A program made the position numbers and the translations under genes. Below are positions 1,721-59,175 of a stretch of 60,681 nucleotides of DNA, in pieces. Below the pieces are notes generated by a model that was not told where the DNA came from, ran no database searches, and was given only the letters and a program-made list of their open reading frames with translations. This stretch comes from Mustelus asterias (lineage: Eukaryota). Location of the stretch: NCBI RefSeq assembly GCF_964213995.1, contig NW_027591068.1, positions 62,001 to 122,681 on the forward strand, written 5' to 3'. Position 1 is the stretch's first letter; each line of letters starts with the position of its first letter.

Positions 1721-2859
1721 GGCCAGGAAGGGCAATAGCAGCAGCACAGTCTCTGCCCAAAGGCTTCCCCAGTTCAGCTGCTCAGAGACACTGGGAATGT
1801 CTTCAAGTGGAAACTTCAGCTTCTCACATTCACCCCCTGTGTTCAGTCATTGTTTCCTAGACAAAGCAGTGAAGAACATTGGGAGAACATGCTTCCAGCT
1901 TAAGAATTCCACAAAATCAGCAGAATTGTAAAATTATGTCAACTCTTGTACTCTGATGTGAAGAAGTAATTTTATATCATGGGCAGTCCTCATTTATTGG
2001 GAGACTAAGAGGCGTTACCCAATGACAGGATTGGCTTGTTGCTCAGTGTTGTCAAGAATTGGCCACCGAACAACATTGGTTGTAGCCCAATAACTTTACC
2101 TGCCCCTGCCTGTCTTTCTCTGCGCCTCTGGTTCTCTGTTCACCTCGGTGTCCATCCTGCACTCTCAATATTTTGGCGGCTAATGTCTGTCTCCTCTCTC
2201 TGTGTCTCAAAGCCCCTCTCTCCCTCAACCGTTTTCCAGCAACGTGCAGAATTTAGAACATGCAATTTCTCCCAGTCTCCTATTTCAATAAATTCCCCAA
2301 GCCCCATTAGGGGACAGCTGATGTGTTAGCCAAAATATCATCATGACAACTCTGAGGAAAGTTTAAACTTGAAGCAGGTGCACTGAAATCCGACAATCTG
2401 TCAGATAAATGTGAGGTTGGAGTCAAATTTACATCCTTTCGATGTGTGGAGAGAACTTTATTGAGAGTTCGAATCTTAGCAGTATTGCTGTGGTTTCAAA
2501 TGTTGTAACACGAGTATAGTTTAACAGAAAGGCCTGGAACACTCAAAACAGGTAAAGCAATTAATTGATGAGGATTCAGACTGAAGTTCGTATTAGTTCC
2601 GTGCATGGGTCCACCTGAATTTAAGTATATTATAACAAGAATCATGAGAACAAGAAAAAATACAGCAGCAAAATCCTGCAACAAGATCCTTCAGTAATCT
2701 GAGAATTCACTGATCTCCCATTTACCTCACATCACCACCAGAGGGCGATCCCTCACCGTGTTTTTGTGTTCACTGTTTCAGGAGCGGGTTCCATAACACA
2801 TGGATATGTTGGGGAGCCACAATCCAAGAGAACAGGATGAATTATTCAATTACCCGGTT

Positions 2860-3045
2860 AAAGGATAGAGAGCAGTAATGCAGGAGAACTCTGCTTTAAT
2901 TGTTGGAATACACAATGATATGTTACAGAGCAGAAATATAAGAGAACTGCATTGCTTGTTGGAATACACAGTGATATGTCACAGAGCAGTAATCAAGGAG
3001 AACTGCATTAATTGTTAGAATACACTGTAATATTTACAGAGCAGA
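2860..3045 (+). repeat. Degenerate 56-bp minisatellite (about 3-4 copies), paralogous to 32723-33112
   Basis: CACAATG at 2911 and CACAGTG at 2967 (56 bp apart), each followed by ATATGTYACAGAGCAG. Confidence 0.8.
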
Positions 3046-3046
3046 T

Positions 3047-3670
3047 ATGGATGCTAAATTTGCAGACAACACAAAGATAGGTAGGACGATAAATGATGAA
3101 GTGCGTGTGAAGATACGAAAAAGAAACATAAATAGGTTAAGTGAATTGGCAAAGCTCCGCCAAATTGAGTATAATGTGGTCAAATGTGAAAATGCCCCTA
3201 TTGGCAGGATGAATATAAAATACACTTAATATTTAAACGGTGAAAGATTACAAAATTCTGAGGTACAGAGAGATTGGGCTGTCCTAGGGCACGAATCGAA
3301 AGGGGCTAAGGTACAGGTATAGTAATTAATTAAAAACGTCATAAAATATGATCATTCACTACGAGGGGATCTATTATAAAATAGGAAGGGTATGTTTCCG
3401 TTGTACGGGGCATTGGTGAGACCACCACCTGGAGTATTGCGGACAATACGTATCTCCTTATCTAAAGAAAGATGGTAATGCGTTAAAAAACGTTCAGAGA
3501 AGGTTTGCTGTAATAGTATCCAGGTACGTGCGGGTTATCTGTATCCGCGGTAAGAATATTGATGTTGGGTTTGTATCCACTTGAGTTTCGAAGACTCAGA
3601 GATAACTTAATTGAAACCTTTAAAACCATAAGGGGTATTAACGGTGTGGATGTGGAGCGGCTATTCCCTC
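3047..3670 (+). mobile_element. CR1 LINE ORF2 fragment
   Basis: AKFADNTKIG (RT FADDTK motif) and LGLYPLEFRRLRDNLIETFK, with stops. Confidence 0.85.
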
Positions 3671-11939: not shown

Positions 11940-12139
11940 AATCTTGTGGATACATTCTCCAGACGCTCTCCTTTGCTGAGGGCTGAAAAAATGTTTCCAA
12001 ACGTACAAGGCAAGATCTCTGCTGATTTTCACAAAGGAAACAAAACGGTCCCTTGAAATATCACGGGAGATGTTTTCTCTGACACCGCATTTCTGTGCCA
12101 CACAGCCAGCAGAGAAGTAGCAGATTCGGGACAAAAATC
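11940..12139 (+). pseudogene. V relic of the V5/V9 family with residual RSS
   Basis: CACAAAGGAAACAAAACGGTCCCTTGAAATATC..TCTGACACCGCATTTCTGTGCC aligns with V5 FR3 (with indels). CACAGCC (12101) + 23 bp + ACAAAAATC (12131). Confidence 0.7.
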
Positions 12140-22335: not shown

Positions 22336-22374
22336 AGTTATTGTACAGGCTCCTGATCTCTCTGTTTCACCGTG
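22336..22374 (-). other. 23-RSS of V7
   Basis: CACGGTG + 23 bp + ACAATAACT. Confidence 0.85.
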
Positions 22375-30472: not shown

Positions 30473-31015
30473 ATGTGCTCCTTACTTTGTTTGCTGATAA
30501 TAATGGACTTGCTGCCCGGTGAGTCAATAAACTCTGACAAAGTGTCATCCTGACTTGAAACTTTATCTCTGTTCGCCTCTCACAGATGTTGTCAGATCTT
30601 CTGAAAATTTCGAGCATTTTCTTTTTTTGAGTCAATGTTTAAACGATCAGTGTCTGTCCCATGGGCTCTCTTCCCTCCCAGATACTGAGTGTGTTCTGTG
30701 TTTTGTTACAGGGGCAAATGCTGAAGATTCAGTGTTTCAAGATCGATCTGAATTATCGGTTCTGGAAGGACAGAACGTAACACTGGACTGTAAAAGCTCG
30801 ACAGCTGCTTTTCAAACTGTGTTCTGGTACATCCAGTATCCCGGGCAAGCTCTGAGATATTTGATGAAGATATATAGCTCGGGCAATACCGATAAGTCTC
30901 CGGATTTCTCAGATAGATTCTCGGCTGCTTTGCACAAAGGAAACAATACTGTTCCTTTGAATATCGCCAGAGCTGTTCTGTCCGACAGCGCCGTGTATTT
31001 CTGTGCCATGGAGCC
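30473..31015 (+). CDS. TRAV/TRDV: TCR alpha/delta V segment V9 (paralog of V5), open
   Basis: Leader 30473-30518 (MCSLLCLLIIMDLLP). V exon 30712-31015: ..VTLDCKS..FWYIQ..SDSAVYFCAMEP. Confidence 0.9.
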
Positions 31016-31053
31016 CACACTGGTACAGATGTAGCGAACCCCGCACAAAAACC
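31016..31053 (+). other. 22-bp-spacer RSS of V9
   Basis: CACACTG + 22 bp + ACAAAAACC. Confidence 0.9.
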
Positions 31054-32722
31054 CCAGACTGGGAGTTCCGGTTAGTGATCAGCAGAGGGCGCTCCCACAC
31101 TGATAAACAGAAATAATTATTTTGTCTCGACAGTGATGGTCACAGGGTCATAAACAAAATATCAAAACTAAACACAACACTCAACACGAACGGCTGAGCC
31201 ACAGTTGAATTTTTAACTTGCAACTATACTAAAAATACATTTACAGTTCCTTAACTCACGCTTCAACCTTTGATGACATTTTCTTGCCTGTGTGAATTAT
31301 TGTGCAGCACTTTCCCCATCTTCACTCTCCTTTTCAAGGTCTCTTTGATCAAAGGGTCTATTTGATCAGAGTATTTTGCTGCCTAAGGGACAGCTTATAT
31401 TGGCATATACATTTCGCAAGGTTATCATTGTGCTATTTAAAACAATCCCTGAGAACAGGTTGCCATCAATGTTCATTCTCATTTTGAATGTCTGTCAAAT
31501 GTTTTCTGACACAATTCACAACCCAGTGTTTCTCTGTTTCAATAATCAGACCAGCGACTTCATTCCCACCCCTGGCCCCAACAATATAGCGATTTTCCTC
31601 ACAAGCACACTGATTATATCTCAGCTTGGGTTATTTCTGCTCACTGGAAGCCAGGTCTCCAGCTTCAGGGCTAAAAACACCACTGCGACACATGTTTTTT
31701 TTATTTCAAAAATATACTTTATTCACAAAAAAAAACTCTCCAATAAAACATTGCAAAATGACAGATCCAAAGGTCATAAACAGTGCAAAAAAGAATCATT
31801 TTTACAGTACAATACAGTGCTTATTTACAAAAACATTACATTTTGTTACATTTCATTTCTTAAAACTATATACATGTGTCAGAGTTTACTGTGTGCCGTT
31901 ATTTTTCAGGTTGGCACACAGTTACTCAGGCCGAGGGTATTCTGCAGTTACCCGGCCCTCGGTCTGCCTCGGTTGAGACGGGGTGGGGAGGGGGAACTTC
32001 AGATAGGCAATTGTGGAATAAACACATTTAAAGTAATTTCCCAACCGTGATTTCAACCTAAAGTTTAAACACACTCCGATATGATTGATTCGGGTTTGAA
32101 CATGTATTTCAGATCTGAGTCATGGAAATTATGTCACTTACTTATTGTCCTCAAATGATGAGACAGAAAAAGAAGTAGTTTTTTTTACAAGTTTCAACTA
32201 TGACATTGCAAGGATTGTCTTTGTTTTATTCTGGAACTCACTGATCAATATCAGCTTTATGATATTGAACTGCGCTCGCAGGGAGTCTTACTCATGTTTG
32301 CAGACAATCGTGAAACAAACAACAGCAACAGCACCGGTCAGGCAGCCAAACCTCTCCATCTCCAGCTGGAGAAATTGGACTCTGAAGAGTTGATCAGAAT
32401 AAGGACTCACTTACGGAATTTATGATGGAAACCAATCCAACCCCGCACTTTGCATTGTGTTCGGGAGCTCCTGTCTGTCGGATTGTAAAATAGTAATTGC
32501 TTAGCGTTGCAAAGCCAATGCAGAGAGCGGACTGGCCAAGCCAGAATCCATCTCCTCATTGCCCCCAAAACCAATTCAAATTGAATCTAATTCATGGTCC
32601 TCGCAAAAAATCCAAGCTGACATGAAAGAGCATCGCACCTGATCTTGGACTCGATTTGATGCTTGATTCGAGCCCAAAGACCGAGGTGCCTGCTTTCTGT
32701 TTTAGTTATATCCAATCAAAAA

Positions 32723-33112
32723 CCAGGGGAACTGGATTAATTGTTAGATTACACAGTGATATGTCACAGAGCAGTAATCCAGGGGAACTGGATTAATTGT
32801 TGGATTACACAGTGATATGTTACAGAGCAGTAATCCAGGGGAACTGGATTAATTGTTAGATTACACAGTGATATGTTACAGAGCAGTAATCCAGGGGAAC
32901 TGGATTAATTGTTAGATTACACAGTGATATGTTACAGAGCAGTAATCCAGGGGAACTGGATTAATTGTGAGATTACACAGTGATATGTCACAGAGCAGTA
33001 ATCCAGGGGAACTGGATTAATTGTTAGATTACACAGTGATATGTTACAGAGCAGTAATCCAGGGGAACTGGAGTAATTGTTAGATTACACAGTGATATGT
33101 CACAGAGCAGAA
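32723..33112 (+). repeat. 56-bp tandem repeat, 7 copies, each containing CACAGTG
   Basis: Unit CCAGGGGAACTGGATTAATTGTTAGATTACACAGTGATATGTYACAGAGCAGTAAT. Heptamers at 32752, 32808, 32864, 32920, 32976, 33032 and 33088. Confidence 0.95.
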
Positions 33113-33950
33113 ATGGATGTTAAGTTTGCTGATGACACAACGATAGATTGGAAAATAAATGGTGATGAGGATGTAAGGGGACGATGAAGGGACATAAGTA
33201 GTTCAGTGAATTGGCAAAGCTTCGCCAAATTGTGTTTAATGTGGGCGGATGTGAAAATGTACATTTTGGCCTGATGAATATAAAATACACTTAATAACTA
33301 AATGGTGCGAGATCACAACATTCTGAGGGACAGAGGGATTGGGCCGTCCTTGGGCATGAATCAAAAGGGGCTAATATACAGGTACAGCAATTAATCAGAA
33401 ATGTCATGAAATGTTACCATTTATGACGAGGGAATGAATTATTAAATAGGAAGGGTCAGAAATTCCTCAGATATAGGAGCAGATTTAGGCCATTCGGCCC
33501 ATCGAGTCCGTTCCGTCATTCGATCATGGCTGATATGCTCCTCATCCCCATTTTCCTGCCTTCTCCCCATAACCCTTCAACCCATTACCAATTAAAAATC
33601 TGTCTAACCCCTCCTTAAATTTACTCACTGTCCCAGCCTCCTCCGCTCTTTGGGGTAGCGAATTTCACAGATTCACAACCCTTTGGGAGAAGTAGTTTCT
33701 CCTCAACTCTGTTTTAAATTTGCTGCCCCTTATCCTAAGACTGTGACCTCTCGTCCTAGAATGTCCCAGAAGAGGAAGCATCCTCTCCACGTCTACTTTA
33801 TCCGTACCTTTTATCATCTTGTCAGTGATCTCTCATTCTTCTAAATTCACGCATGTTTCCATTGTGCAAGGCACTGGAGAGACCACATCTGGAGTATTGT
33901 GTACAATACTTGATTCCTTATCTATAGAAAGATGGTAATGTGTTAGAAAA
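33113..33950 (+). mobile_element. CR1 fragment (paralog of 3047-3490) with a nested inverted CR1 3' end at ~33465-33845
   Basis: VKFADDTTI..; homology to 3047+ resumes after the nested piece (GAGACCACATCTGGAGTATTG). Confidence 0.8.
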
Positions 33951-36140
33951 CTGCCCCAGGCTCCTGTGAATTCCTCCAACTGGTATTTAATGTAGACTTG
34001 AATTGATTTATTTTAAAACGGTTTTTTTTAAACATATTGAGACTGGCCTGAAAGTGGTAGACTGGGGACTATCACACAGATGCTCTCAATCTGATGGTGT
34101 GGTGGTATTGTCACTGGACTGGGAGCCCAGAGTCCGAGGGTAATGCACTGGGCAGCCAGCTTCCAATCACACCACAGCAAATAGTGAAATCTCAATTCAA
34201 TAAAAATCTGTCATTAAAGGTCTGGTGATGACCATGAAACCATTGCCGTTAAAACCCATTTGGTTCCCCGATGCCCTTCAGAGAAGGAATTTATCCGACT
34301 CCAGAATAAGACCAGAGGATGCTGGAAAATCTCAGCAGGTCTGGTAGGACCTGTAAGTCTTTCATGTGAATCCAGGTCCACACGATGTGGTTGACTCTGG
34401 AATGGCCCAGCAAGCAAGCTGCTCAGTTCAAGGGCAGTTAGGGATAGACCGCAAGCAAGGAACTGGGAACAATCTGCACTAAATATTGGCCAGTTATTTT
34501 CAGTCTGGAAATGTAAAGCTGCCGTTTCGCTCTCAGTCAGGAACAGATCCCAGTTTTACACCAATCTCTGATTTAACAGCACATTGGAGAGCTGGTGCAG
34601 ACACGATGGGCCAAATGGCCTCCTGCACCAACACTATTCTGTGAAATCTTAGAAAAACAGGGAAATGCTGGAATTAAACTCAGCAGGTTCGGCAGCATCT
34701 GTGCAGAGAGAGAGAGAGAAACAGAGTTAACATTTCAGCTCTGTGACCTTTCCTGTGAACTGGGGAAAGTTCGAAATGTAACAGGTTTGGAGAAAGGGGC
34801 GGGTGGGACAGGGACTAAAGGAAGGTCTGTGAGAGGGTGGAAGACAGGAGAGATTGAATGAGAGAAAAGTGAACCCCCCCCCCCCCCAACCCGAGCCAAA
34901 GGGAATGGAGATGGAGCGAGAGAAGGAACAGAGAAACAGAAGCTGTGTCTGGAGCAGGGGGGCTGCCGACTGAAAGAAAGAAAAATGAAACAATCAAAGA
35001 AAAAGAAGCAGAACGGGCTGAGAGTTCACTCTCTGAAACTGTTGGACTGAATCTTGAGTCCAGAAGGCTGTAAAGTGTGGAGGGGGTGGGTGAGTGGGGG
35101 GGATGTTCTCCTGGACCTGCTCCAGACCCTGGTTAAAACAGTAACCAGTAGATCCAGGATGGGGGGGGGGGGGGGTCACTCTGGCTGATCTGCTGTGGTC
35201 TTGTCTGTGCCCAGCTCAATCTGATCTGTGCAACTCAAACACACTGGAGAGTGTTTGATAGGAAATGAAGATTGTGAATCTAACTCAGTGTGTGAACTCC
35301 CTCAGAGGCTCCCACACTGCATTCCAACAAACTGAGCTGGATTGGACTGAATGGGAAGTCATGGGAATGTAGCCCTCACTGACTTCATGCATCAAGTACA
35401 TTTCTGGATGGAAATTAGCTGCATCGACTCCAGCCTGGTTGTTGGTGTGAAACAGGAGCTGATGTCTATCTGTGTGTGTGTGTGTGAGTCCCTGCGTGCA
35501 GCTCCCAGAGAGTTTAAAATCCTGCATCTGTCTCTCTGCAGAGCTGCTGGTTAAAGACACACTTACAGCATTTATCAGACAGAAACTTCACTCTCATTCT
35601 CTCCCTCCCCTCCCCCAGCCAGTGCTTCTGTTTAAAAAACAGTTTAAACGCTTTATGTTGCAGCTCTGATCTCTGGTGAATCATTAACCACACACACACA
35701 TTCAGACACCCGGACAGACAGATTGTAAATCAGAAGTGGCAGTTGTAAATGCAGCAACAAAGAACTTTGCAAGATATTGTTTCAGTTCAGGCAACTTAAG
35801 GAAAAGTGAATTTTGCAAGAATCAGCAAAGGGTGCAAACCTGTAGCCGATGGAGTCCTGGATGAACAAGTTGTACAATCCACATTCAGACCTGGCCTCTC
35901 TCTCTCTCTGGCAGTGCAGGGCTGCGAGTTAATTGAAACCCATCTTCTCTCAGCTCCCAGTGCTGGTGATGTGAAGCTGGGAGTGGGGGGGGGAGGGAGA
36001 GCCTTGGGATAAACCATTTGCCTGGTGCTCACTAACCCCCACACACACAAACACCCCCCACACACTCAGAGACAGGTTGGTGTTGGACTGGCCCATACCT
36101 GGAGGAGGTGTGTTCAGGTGAGGTGTAGGAGATGTGGTTG

Positions 36141-51049: not shown

Positions 51050-54000
51050 CAGCACAAAATCCCAGGATTGCCCCTTTCCAGGTTTTACTGAGAGTTTGTC
51101 CAACTAAATATTAATTCCTGGGAAAAAGAGGGAGAGAGAGAGAATAAAGAGAGGCAGAGAGAGGAAGGAAATGGAGAGAAAAGCAGAGAGAAATAGACAG
51201 AATGGGGGAAAAGCTGTGGAGAGGATGAAATGAAAATCTGAACATCTGTTAACTGAATTGTAAAGGCCTCTGTGAATTTTATTCAACAATTAGGTTCATT
51301 GCTCTGTCTCCGACCCCTGTTATTTTAGATTTAAAGCAAACTTATAGACAGTTTCATACATAATTTAGTCTTTGCCACCCACCAAAGGGTTAACGTGTTC
51401 GCGACTAATTACAAAGCCGGGATATTTTAACCCCAGGGTTTCAAACTCCAGCCCCCCACACCCCACAATCGACCAGAACTGGTTCATCCGAGGAAGCGAG
51501 ATTAAAATTAAACCTGGATCAGGGTAATAAAGAGACGACAACTCACATGCGGCCGATAGAACAGGCCTCAGTCCATCCATCCTCCTCTGGAGAAAAGCCC
51601 CTTGTCCAAGGATTCCGAGTCATGTTGCAGTCTTCAAAATTCAAATTCCTGGGGAGAAGAGAAAATAATGAATTAAGGTACAAGAAAATGTTTAAATTAA
51701 ATAGCACAAGAGCCCAGGATTCCCCCTTCTAAGATTTCACTGAGAGATTGTTTAACTAAATATGAATTCCTTGGGAAGAGATAGAATATAATTAATTTAA
51801 ATACAAGAAAATGTTGAAATTAAATAGCACAAGAGCCCAGGATTCCCCTTTCTCAGTTACACAATCTCTCAGTAAAAGCTAAATATTAATTCTTGGGTAA
51901 AAGAGAGAGAAATATATTAAAATACCAGAAAATGTTTAAATTAAATAGCACAAGAGCCCAAGATTCCCCCTTCTCAGATTTTACTGAGAGATTGTCCAAC
52001 AAAATATGACTTCCTGGGAAAAAGAGGGAGAGAGAGGGAATAGAAAAGAGAGACAGATAGAGGAAGGAAAGGGAGAGAAAGAGAGAAAGCGGAGAGAAAT
52101 AGACAGAATGGCGGAAAAGCTGCAGAGAGGACACAATGAAAGTCTGAACATCTGAAAACTGAATTGTAAAGGCCTCTATGAATTTTATTCAACAATTAGG
52201 AACAGCGCTCTGTCTCCCATCCCCTGTTATCTTGGATTTAAAACTAACTTTCAGACTGCTTCATATTACAGATATTTAATTTACTCTTTGCCACCCAGCA
52301 AAGGGTTAACCTGTTTCTGACTAACTGCAAAGCCGGGATATTTTAACCCCAGGGTTTCAAACTCCAGCTGCCCCCCCACACCCCACAATCGAACCAGAAC
52401 TGGTTCATCCGAGGAAGCGAGATTAAAATTAAACCTGGATCAGGGTAATAAAGAGATGACAACTCACATGCGGCCTATAGAACAGGCCTCAGTCCATCCA
52501 TCCTCCTCTGGAGAAAAGCCCCTTGTCCAAGGATTCTGAGTCCCATTGTAGTCTCTCATGTACTCTGCATTGAAACGAGCGAAGCCATATTCCTGTCTCC
52601 CTGCTGACAATAACGGAGAGTTTTTATTGATTAAAGATTTAAAGAGACACAAAGAAAGATGGAGCCAGAGAGAGAGAGAGACATTCTGGAGAGTGATAGA
52701 CAGATATGGAAGAACGCTCGAGAGAGAGAGAGATGAGCGGAAAGAGACAGGAAGGGAGAGAAAGCTGAAGATGAGAAAAAATACTGGAGGGAGAGACAGA
52801 GAGAAAAGCAGAGAGAAATAGACAGAATGGGGAAGAAAGCTGTAGAGGGGAAGATAAATGCAATGGCTGAACTTCAGAAAATTGAATTGTAATGTCCTCT
52901 GTGAAACGTATTTAACATTCGGGTATATCACTCTCTCCCACCCCTGATATTTTGGATTTATATCAAACTTTTAGACAGCTTCATATTACAGATATTTAAT
53001 TTACTCTTTGCCACCCACCTAAGGGTTAATGTGTTTGTAACTAATTGCAAAGCTGGGATATTTTAACCCCAGGGTTTTAAACTCCACCCCCCCCCCCCCC
53101 CCTCCCCACCCCACAATCGAACCAGAACTGGTTCATCCGAGGAAGCGAGATTAAAATTAAACCTGGATCAGGGTAATAAAGAGACGACGACTCACATGCG
53201 GCCTATAGAACAGGCCTTAGTCCATCCATCCTCCTCTGGAGAAAAGCCCCTTGTCCAAGGATTCCGAGTCATGTTGCAGTCTTCAAAATTCAAATTCCTG
53301 GGGAACAGAGAAAATAATTAATTAAAGTACAAGAAAATGTTTAAATTAAATAGCACAAGAGCCCAGGATTCCCCCTTCTAAGATTTCACTGACAGATTGT
53401 TTAACTAAATATGAATTCCTTGGGAAGAGATCGAATATAATTAATTTAAATACAAGAAAATGTTGAAATTAAATAGCACAAGAGACCAGGATTCCCCTTT
53501 CTCAGTTACACAATCTCTCAGTAAAATCTAAATATTAATTCTTGGGTAAAAGAGAGAGAAATATATTAAAATACCAGAAAATGTTTAAATTAAATAGCAC
53601 AAGAGCCCAAGATTCCCCCTTCTCAGATTTTACTGAGAGATTGTGCAACAAAATATGACTTCCTGGGAAAAAGAGGGAGAGAGAGGGAATAAAAAAGAGA
53701 GACAGATAGAGGAAGGAAAGGGAGAGAAAGAGAGAGAGAAAGCAGAGAGAAATAGACAGAATGGGGGAAAAGCTGCAGAGAGGACACAATGAAAGTCTGA
53801 ACATCTGAAAACTGAATTATAAAGGCCTCTATGAATTTTATTCAACAATTAGGAACAGCGCTCTGTCTCCCATCCCTGTTATCTTGGATTTAAAACTAAC
53901 TTTGAGACAGCTTCATATTACAGACATTTAATTTACTCTCTGCCACCCAGCAAAGGGTTAACCTGTTTCTGACTAACTGCAAAGTCGGGATATTTTAACC

Positions 54001-54450
54001 CCAGGGTTTCAAACTCCAGCTGCCCCCCCACACCCCACAATCGAACCAGAACTGATTCATCCGAGGAAGCGAGATTAAAATTAAACCTGGATCAGGGGAA
54101 TAAAGAGACGACAACTCACTTGCGGCCTATAGAACAGGCTTCAGTCCATCCATCCTCCTCTGGAGATAAGCCCCTTGTCCAAGGATTCCGAGTCACATTG
54201 CAGTCTTCAAAATTCAAATTCCTGGGGAGAAGAGAAAATAATTAATTAAAATACAAGAATTCTTTAAATTAAATAGCACAAGAGGCCAGGATTCCCCCTT
54301 CTCAGTTACACAATCTCTCAGTAAAATCTAAATATTAATTCTTGGGGAAAGAGAGAGAAAATAATTAAAATACAAGAAAATATTTAAATTACATAGCACA
54401 GCAAAAAACCCAGGATCTCCCCTCAGTGACACAATCTCTCAGTAACACCC
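51050..54450. repeat. Tandem duplication (~1.65 kb block made of ~0.73 and ~0.92 kb sub-units)
   Basis: Homologous splice donors at 51546, 52467, 53195 and 54119. Confidence 0.88.
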
Positions 54451-57970: not shown

Positions 57971-59175
57971 TCTTGTATCTATCCTGTGAGTGTTTGATTG
58001 GGACAGTGTAGAGGGAGCTTTATTCTGTATCTAACTCCATGCTGTCCCTGTCCTGGGTGTGTTTGATGGGGACAGTGTAGAGGGAGCTTTACTCTGTATT
58101 GAATCCCGTGCTGTATTTGTCCTGGGAGTGTTTGATGGGGACAGTGTCGAGGGAGCTATACTCTGCACCTAACCCCGTGCTGTATCTGTTCCGGGAGTGT
58201 TTGATGGGGATAGTGTAGAGGGAGCTTTATCTGTATCTAACCCTGTGCTGTATATGTCCTGGAAGTGTTTGATGAGGACAGTGTCGAGGGAGCTTTACTC
58301 TGTATCTAACCCCGTGCTGTACCTGTGCTGGGCGAGTTTGATGGGGACAGTGCAGAGGGAGCTTTACTCTGTATCTAACCCCGTGCTGTATCTGTTCCGG
58401 GAGTGTTTGATGGGGACAGTGTGGAGGGAGATTTACTCTGTATCTAACCCCATGCTGTACCTGTCCTGGGACTGTTTGATGGAGACAGTGTCGAGGGAGC
58501 TTTACTCTGTATCTAACCACTTGCTGTATCTGTCCTGGGAGTGTTTGATGGTGACAGTGTCGAGGGAGCTTTACTCTGTATCTAACCCCGTGCTGTACCT
58601 GTCCTTGATTTGTCTGATGGGGATATTGTAGAGGGAGCTTTACTCCATATCTCACCCCCTGCTCTATCTGTTGTTGGAGTGTTTGATGGGGATAGTGCAG
58701 AGTGAGCTTTACTTTGTATCTAACCCATGCTGTGCCTGTCCTGGGAGTGTTTGATGGGGACAGTATCGAGGGAGCTTTATTCTTTATCTAAACCCGTGCT
58801 GTACCTGTCCTGGGCGAGTGTGTTGGGGACAGTGCAGAGGGAGCTTTCCTCTGTATCTAACCCCGTGCTGTATCTGTCCTTGGTTTGTTTGATTGATCTC
58901 CACATCATAACTTGTTTGATGGGGACAGTGTAGAGGGAGCTTTACTCTATATCTAACCCCGTGCTGTACCTGTCCTGGGTGTGTTGGATCGGGACTGTGG
59001 AGAGGGAGCTTTACTCTGTATCGAACTCTGTGCTGTGTCTGTCCTGGGTGTGTTGGATGGGGACAGTGGAGAGAGAGCTTTACTCTGTATCGAACTCTGT
59101 GCTGTACCTGTACCTTTCCTGTGAGTGTTTGATGGGAACAGTGTCGAGGGAGCTTTACTTTGCATCTAATCCCAT
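57971..59175 (+). repeat. 69-bp satellite
   Basis: Unit GGGACAGTGTAGAGGGAGCTTTACTCTGTATCTAACCCCGTGCTGTACCTGTCCTGGGAGTGTTTGATG; 23-aa periodicity in the ORF track. Confidence 0.93.

What the first reader, a model, noticed from the sequence alone, without database searches (positions are those of the whole stretch)
32723..33112. Tandem array of seven 12-RSS-like units at the edge of the V cluster
Seen: every 56-bp unit holds a perfect heptamer CACAGTG, exactly 12 bp (ATATGTYACAGA), then GCAGTAATC. That is a 5/9 match to ACAAAAACC, including C2, A3, A6 and A7; the last unit has GCAGAAATG. The intact V segments here carry 22/23-spacer RSSs, so these would be 12/23-compatible partners. Inference: an amplified cryptic or decoy RSS array could act as a RAG sink, a deleting element or a source of V inversion. 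It may equally be an RSS relic or a chance match.
Basis: partly seen in the sequence, partly recalled or inferred. Interest (0 to 1): 0.7.

Follow-up and report, generated by a model that had tools for sequence, protein, structure and literature searches.

The report
Shark minisatellite resembling RAG cut signal
This is a seven-copy piece of a common 56-base shark repeat that also sits far from any immune-receptor gene segment; it likely resembles the immune recombinase's cut signal by accident, and would at most be cut now and then.

Summary
The array is real: seven 56-bp units, each CACAGTG + 12 bp + GCAGTAATC (last GCAGAAATG), 1.7 kb past a TCR V segment in a shark-like genome. It is one member of a minisatellite family: 2,695 exact unit cores genome-wide, arrays up to at least 384 units, beside zinc-finger, LRR/SRCR and GPCR genes, and on eight scaffolds with no V hit and no consensus RSS. 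Against 52 real J 12-RSSs from this genome its nonamer (5/9) is worse than all, and it scores below 22 of 24 RSS clusters. Older, diverged arrays lose heptamer bases at the background rate (21% vs 17%). Here the array joined the V cassette at a 5-bp microhomology 28 bp from the heptamer; 11 of 14 sampled copies of this flank lack it, including the one on a contig that also holds a J cluster. A selected decoy or deleting role is not supported. Precedent: cryptic RSSs in mouse gamma-satellite.

The parts
32723..33114 (+). Seven-unit 56-bp minisatellite array; each unit holds CACAGTG, 12 bp and a 5/9 nonamer
32720..32724 (+). AAACC microhomology at which the V-cassette flank is joined to the array cassette (28 bp before the first heptamer)
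   Evidence: empty allele and donor cassette both carry AAACC here
32200..32719 (+). Left flank of the duplicated V cassette; continues without the array in 11 of 14 copies fetched
33115..33960 (+). Broken LINE reverse-transcriptase fragment (KFADDT motif) abutting the last unit, interrupted by a high-copy LINE piece on the minus strand (33578-33820); the usual 3' neighbour of this repeat family. The name CR1-like is recalled.
30747..31053 (+). Nearest TCR V exon (Pfam V-set) with CACACTG-22-ACAAAAACC RSS at 31016-31053, same orientation as the array heptamers
2615..2792 (+). Leader that precedes the array in its full-length form, with a CTCF-like motif at 2735 (motif recalled)
2793..3045 (+). 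Older, diverged five-unit copy of the same repeat; 1 of 5 heptamers perfect
3049..3509 (+). Homologous LINE RT fragment after the older copy

Best explanation
The array is a seven-unit piece of a 56-bp minisatellite family that is spread over at least 40 contigs, and its likeness to a 12-RSS is likely fortuitous and unselected. Shown: the full element is leader + tandem units + LINE fragment; old five- or six-unit versions lie between TCR V segments; a homogenised young variant has expanded to arrays of 4 to at least 384 units. Inferred: units expand by slippage or unequal exchange, the element travels inside segmental duplications, and in this lineage of the V cassette it was fused to the flank of V31016 by a microhomology-mediated (AAACC) rearrangement that dropped the leader, after which the fused cassette was copied at least 11 times. 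Predicted: because the heptamer side is near-optimal and the nonamer weak but not hopeless, RAG would cut some units at low frequency in thymocytes, as a by-product; with the six + strand V segments that would give an inversion, not a deletion.
For: Dispersal: 233 matches, the 150 listed on 33 contigs; 2,695 exact 26-bp cores, 0 for the reversed control; 1,349 distinct units on 40 contigs in the DNA fetched; C87 array 28+178+178 units and still running. Non-receptor sites: 0 V hits in 16 stretches (160 kb) and 20 more (199 kb) on C38, 39, 41, 45, 46, 48, 55, 57; no consensus 12- or 22/23-RSS listed for C27-C68; neighbours hit 7tm_1, LRR_6 (below cut-off) and SRCR or zf-C2H2. Weak as an RSS: 52 unique J RSSs all have >=6/9 nonamers; unit 8.8-11.0 bits, below 22 of 24 leave-one-out clusters; 186 of 2,533 window CAC sites score as high. 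No selection: old arrays differ from the unit at 24/114 heptamer, 21/138 nonamer, 100/582 other positions (p 0.35, 0.62); young units show no significant excess conservation (heptamer p 0.07, nonamer p 0.20) and perfect heptamers are equally common beside V (369/375), zinc-finger (735/743) and V-free (139/144) loci. Dispensable: 11 of 14 flank copies empty; no unit in 18 stretches (about 178 of 249 kb) of C546, which holds this V cassette and >=129 J motifs. Junction: microhomology; no array end at an intact CAC and no signal joint with a unit, while a true signal joint was visible elsewhere. No homology of leader or unit to V ends, V 3' flanks or J regions.
Against: CACAGTGAT is second of the AT-spacer class in SARP-seq (PMC9723617 Table 1). 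GCAGTAATC keeps the R-W-R motif at 4-6 and is one base from ACAGTAATC, row 363 of the top-1000 table of PMC12711392; G1 occurs in real shark J RSSs. All 70 leader-array starts lie on C71 (the J-bearing chromosome) or on contigs C87 and up, the exact core has no match on C1-C37, and a 50-unit array lies on C71 between V segments and the J cluster; several zinc-finger contigs also hold V segments, so dispersal is regional, not genome-wide. Heptamer variation in young units is the lowest class (0.3% vs 3% mean), though not significant. Shuffle probability of the motif is only 0.07% per repeat. Three array ends fall in or near a heptamer (see report).
Confidence: 0.8

Rival explanations
1. The unit began as a genuine RSS (12-type, or 22-type using AGGAGAACT in the A-variant) in the TCR V region, decayed, and was then amplified neutrally as a minisatellite.
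For: The oldest arrays lie about 1 kb from V segments, also on C71; the array starts 3-4 bases before a heptamer; motif rare in shuffles; real RSSs do get duplicated in tandem in this genome (two 23-RSSs 61 bp apart on C71).
Against: No V or J homology beside the first heptamer: nhmmer and blastn gave nothing for 47 V ends (positive control E 2e-94), best E 0.02 for 48 V 3' flanks, 0.5-1 for 158 J regions. Old units are no closer to the consensus nonamer than young ones.
Confidence: 0.12
2. The arrays are selected decoy or deleting 12-RSS elements that soak up RAG, or invert or delete V segments, in the expanded TCR alpha/delta region.
For: Optimal heptamer plus AT; nonamer near a functional one; 12/23-compatible with the local V RSSs; concentration on C71 and V-bearing contigs; family present in three other organisms' runs.
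Against: No selection signal; absent from 11 of 14 flank copies and from the sampled J-linked contig; longest arrays sit among zinc-finger genes; same orientation as six of eight window V RSSs, so it could not delete them the way a J-oriented element would (inference); no germline RAG scar at array ends.
Confidence: 0.05
3. The many near-identical cassette copies are assembly duplicates (haplotigs), so the copy numbers are inflated.
For: Eight loci share array and flanks at 99-100%; most lie on short unplaced contigs.
Against: C232, C1085, C1151 and C627 each hold both a filled and an empty copy; unit numbers differ (4, 5, 7); independent runs show far more depth over the array than over its flanks (depth is no copy number). 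It would not change the nature of the repeat.
Confidence: 0.03

Closest known systems
Cryptic RSSs in mouse gamma-satellite (Cowell et al. 2003, PMC2193808; passages read)
   Same: A tandem repeat whose unit holds an RSS-like motif; there, plasmid rearrangement and RAG-dependent breaks were shown, and the paper already raises the idea of a frequent, harmless site for RAG breaks.
   Different: That unit is 234 bp with 23-type cryptic signals and non-consensus heptamers; this is 56 bp, 12-type, with a perfect heptamer, lies in and near a TCR region, and is untested.
Cryptic RSSs in TCR loci (bioRxiv 10.64898/2026.09.01.748595; abstract only)
   Same: Low-frequency RAG use of non-functional sites across a V region; RSS resemblance did not reliably predict use.
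   Different: Single sites in mouse Tcrb, not amplified arrays.
Deleting elements KDE/RS and deltaRec-psiJalpha (features recalled; search listing only)
   Same: An RSS without a functional coding segment in or beside a receptor locus.
   Different: Those are single-copy, at a fixed place and with a shown rearrangement; this is multi-copy, variably present, also outside receptor loci.
Genuine shark TCR J 12-RSSs of this genome
   Same: Heptamer, 12-bp spacing, C2, A3, A6, A7.
   Different: No J coding segment; nonamer 5/9 versus >=6/9 in 52 of 52; T at nonamer 8, where real ones mostly have C.

Membership tests
Physiological 12-RSS | Heptamer beginning CAC | tested here: met
   CACAGTG in 7 of 7 units
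Physiological 12-RSS | Nonamer within the range of real RSSs at 12 bp | tested here: not met
   5/9 versus >=6/9 in 52 of 52 J RSSs; score below 22 of 24 clusters; not in the top-1000 table
Physiological 12-RSS | Flanks a V, D or J coding segment | tested here: not met
   No V or J homology; D segments not tested
Physiological 12-RSS | RIC12 above -40 | not testable with these tools
   No RIC model held; threshold from PMC2193808
Cryptic RSS | CAC-led heptamer with nonamer-like features | tested here: met
   CACAGTGAT ranks high; R-W-R at 4-6; one base from ACAGTAATC
Cryptic RSS | RAG cleavage or joining shown | not testable with these tools
   No thymus reads; no germline junction at an intact CAC
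Deleting element (KDE, deltaRec/psiJalpha) | Fixed, conserved, single place in the locus | tested here: not met
   11 of 14 flank copies empty; 40 contigs
Deleting element (KDE, deltaRec/psiJalpha) | Signal conserved above its surroundings | tested here: not met
Minisatellite (VNTR) | Head-to-tail units of tens of bp | tested here: met
   Period 56, 97% matches
Minisatellite (VNTR) | Variable unit number between loci | tested here: met
   4 to >=384 units
Minisatellite (VNTR) | Array-specific variants (homogenisation within arrays) | tested here: met
   Nonamer position 5 non-T in 3% of V-linked, 49% of zinc-finger-linked and 67% of V-free units

The most novel reading that the evidence does not exclude
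A shark-specific satellite of about 2,700 heptamer-optimal cryptic 12-RSSs, born in and concentrated around a hugely expanded TCR alpha/delta region, is a real RAG substrate in thymocytes: it diverts or inverts V segments, or has driven the region's rearrangement, and is kept for that.
Probability: 0.06. Interest if true: 0.65.

Novelty: new member of a known kind. Interest (0 to 1): 0.17.

Why it matters
As read here it matters little: a minisatellite with an accidental RSS likeness, a situation known from mouse gamma-satellite. It is a caution for RSS scans of shark receptor loci and a handy marker of how the V cassettes were duplicated. If RAG does cut it often, thousands of 12-type sites inside a multi-megabase V region would be a natural test of how RAG scanning copes with decoys, with filled and empty cassettes as built-in controls.

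Tried and rejected
SRCR origin of the unit: the C38 array follows an SRCR exon, but paralogous exons diverge at the junction, so it is a fusion; rejected. J-segment origin (the unit reads RGTGLIVR in one frame): no FG, older units read RRTALIVR, nhmmer E >= 1; rejected. V-end or V 3'-flank (CTCF cassette) origin of the leader: nothing significant. Expression: no RNA holder listed. Laying contigs of four runs showed the repeat in all four but no listed piece spanning the flank-array junction; inconclusive on its age. PDB search of the V gave only generic antibody/TCR hits. A regex for a TCR constant exon near the J clusters found none, so 'alpha-type' rests on J number and motif. The regex heptamer tally was noisy and was replaced by alignments. 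Literature: searches listed no description of this repeat; the library lacks most subscription journals and repeat databases. Earlier scan notes by place (near) and by sequence returned nothing.

Full report
Observation. The array is as described: 32723-33114, seven 56-bp units, 97% alike, each with CACAGTG, the spacer ATATGTYACAGA and GCAGTAATC (GCAGAAATG in the last), all 5/9 to the consensus. Eight V exons with 22/23-bp RSSs lie upstream, six on + and two on -; the two scanned hit Pfam V-set. The nearest, with its RSS at 31016, is 1.7 kb away and points the same way as the array heptamers. The window is the end of contig C1036 of a 3.68-Gb genome; that it is a shark is inferred from the repeats and receptor genes.

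A repeat family. The array matches 233 places, the 150 listed on 33 contigs. An exact 26-base core occurs 2,695 times (reversed control 0), first on C38. In the stretches fetched there are 1,349 distinct units on 40 contigs. Arrays run from 4 units to at least 384 on C87, where the fetched DNA ends inside the array. The full element is a leader of about 180 bp, the units, and a broken LINE reverse-transcriptase fragment. A diverged five-unit copy lies in this window at 2793-3045, and such old copies recur about 1 kb from V segments, also on C71.

Where it lies. Of 20 array loci sampled, 7 had a V within the stretch and 8 had three or more zinc fingers. On C38, 39, 41, 45, 46, 48, 55 and 57 no V was hit in 16 stretches or in 20 more from four of them (one stray FGxG motif in L165 was not followed). 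No consensus 12-RSS (all 21 matches listed) or 22/23-RSS (the first 100 of 612, listed in contig order, pass from C26 to C69) falls on them. Neighbours there hit 7tm_1, SRCR and, below cut-off, LRR_6. Against a plain 'dispersed' reading: all 70 leader-array starts lie on C71 or on contigs from C87 up; C71 carries 22/23-RSS matches from 4.5 Mb on and a J cluster at 18.37 Mb; several zinc-finger contigs also carry V segments; and a 50-unit array sits at C71:16.04 Mb between V segments and J cluster. The family is thus densest in the TCR region but not confined to it.

How good an RSS. Real 12-RSSs were taken from 108 J motifs on C71 and C546 (52 unique, 24 clusters). All 52 nonamers match at >=6/9. 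The units score 8.8-11.0 bits, below 22 of 24 leave-one-out values; the two lower ones look out of register by one base. 186 of 2,533 CAC sites in the window score as high. Published assays are kinder: CACAGTGAT is second in its spacer class (PMC9723617, section with Table 1). The nonamer keeps the R-W-R motif at 4-6 (PMC12711392, abstract and Results parts 1-2 of 3). It is absent from that paper's top-1000 table but one base from ACAGTAATC (score 0.594). In that table A1 to G lowers ACAAAAACC from 0.90 to 0.65 and ACAGAAACC from 0.75 to 0.57, so the unit likely falls below the list's end near 0.56. That screen used a 23-RSS in mouse cells. A weak cryptic site is the fair reading; RIC could not be computed.

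Selection. In three old array types the heptamer differs from the young unit at 24 of 114 positions, the nonamer at 21 of 138, the rest at 100 of 582 (p 0.35 and 0.62); across the five old arrays aligned, 3 of 28 heptamers are perfect. In young units heptamer positions vary least on average, but not significantly (p 0.07); the nonamer's fifth base is the most variable position of the motif; perfect heptamers are as common away from V segments as beside them. The old arrays share ancestry, so these counts are not fully independent.

How it got here. Eight loci share the array and its left 1.5-kb flank at >=99.4% and the right flank at >=99.1% (one only over 309 bp); three more carry the same junction. 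Of 14 further flank copies fetched, 11 go on without the array. Empty allele and donor cassette share AAACC exactly at the join, 28 bp before the first heptamer: a microhomology-type rearrangement that dropped the leader (inferred). The copy on C546, which also holds at least 129 J motifs, is empty, and no unit was found in 18 stretches covering about 178 of its 249 kb. One search lists 15 left-end and 14 right-end classes. None starts at an intact CAC; entries at phase 0 or 55 are artefacts of my extension when read. Three are near a heptamer: one joins 3 bases inside it, one stops 4 bases inside it at a LINE, and one stops about 7 bases before it in a (GT)n run. The leader-type start is 3-4 bases before the first heptamer. 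No unit forms a signal joint, whereas a precise 12/23 signal joint was seen in a light-chain-type cluster on C8.

Mechanism. Shown: tandem family, variable length, regional dispersal, microhomology at this junction, no excess conservation. Inferred: slippage or unequal exchange, transport inside segmental duplications, accidental RSS likeness. Predicted: occasional RAG cutting, which would invert rather than delete the + strand V segments. Descent from a real RSS is not excluded (0.12), but no V or J homology was found beside it.

Comparison and novelty. The closest case is the mouse gamma-satellite cryptic RSS, where the sink idea is already in print (PMC2193808, passages). Low-level cryptic use in TCR loci is reported (bioRxiv 10.64898/2026.09.01.748595, abstract only; supplements not seen). 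The shark TCR alpha/delta region is described in PMC12227049 (passages; the term 'zinc finger' does not occur in its main text). PMC12205992 was seen as abstract and outline only. Seven searches listed no account of this repeat. Verdict: a real but ordinary minisatellite, a new member of a known kind; interest 0.17.

Noticed in passing
L060:5750-5816 (G000:C8:50402750-50402816): A precise head-to-head 12-RSS/23-RSS signal joint in an Ig light-chain-type cluster, present in the assembled genome; may be a germline RAG footprint or a somatic read.
   Followed up: partly
G000:C71:7091239 and 7091300: Two near-consensus 23-RSSs 61 bp apart: a true stacked RSS, a better candidate than this array.
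   Followed up: no
G000:C71 4.5-18.4 Mb, C546 and many unplaced contigs: Very large TCR V region interleaved with C2H2 zinc-finger genes: 612 consensus 22/23-RSS matches genome-wide, 80 of them before C71; two J clusters with 34 (C71) and at least 129 (C546) J motifs; zinc-finger genes between V and J; no constant exon identified.
   Followed up: partly
window 16223 and 31016: One V family carries 22-bp spacers with perfect nonamers in all copies seen.
   Followed up: no
window 22374 (- strand) and 12101: V at 22374 ends YYS instead of YYC; the RSS at 12101 follows a decayed V-like stretch.
   Followed up: no
window 19198: Lone CACAGTC-12-ACAAAATCA site without a V or J reading beside it; 11.6 bits, as weak as the array units.
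   Followed up: partly
window 2735 and 29620: CTCF-like motifs (motif recalled), the first in the array leader about 60 bp before the first unit.
   Followed up: partly
L022:8250-8600 (G000:C38): A frameshifted SRCR exon fused to the array inside a region with LRR exons.
   Followed up: yes
L169, L172, L173 (G000:C41, C39): Several long unidentified ORFs, perhaps of an LTR retroelement; only their starts were seen.
   Followed up: no
window 51644-54445 and 57974-59166: Other minisatellites (121-123 bp in three duplicated blocks; 69 bp) fill the V-free end of the contig.
   Followed up: no
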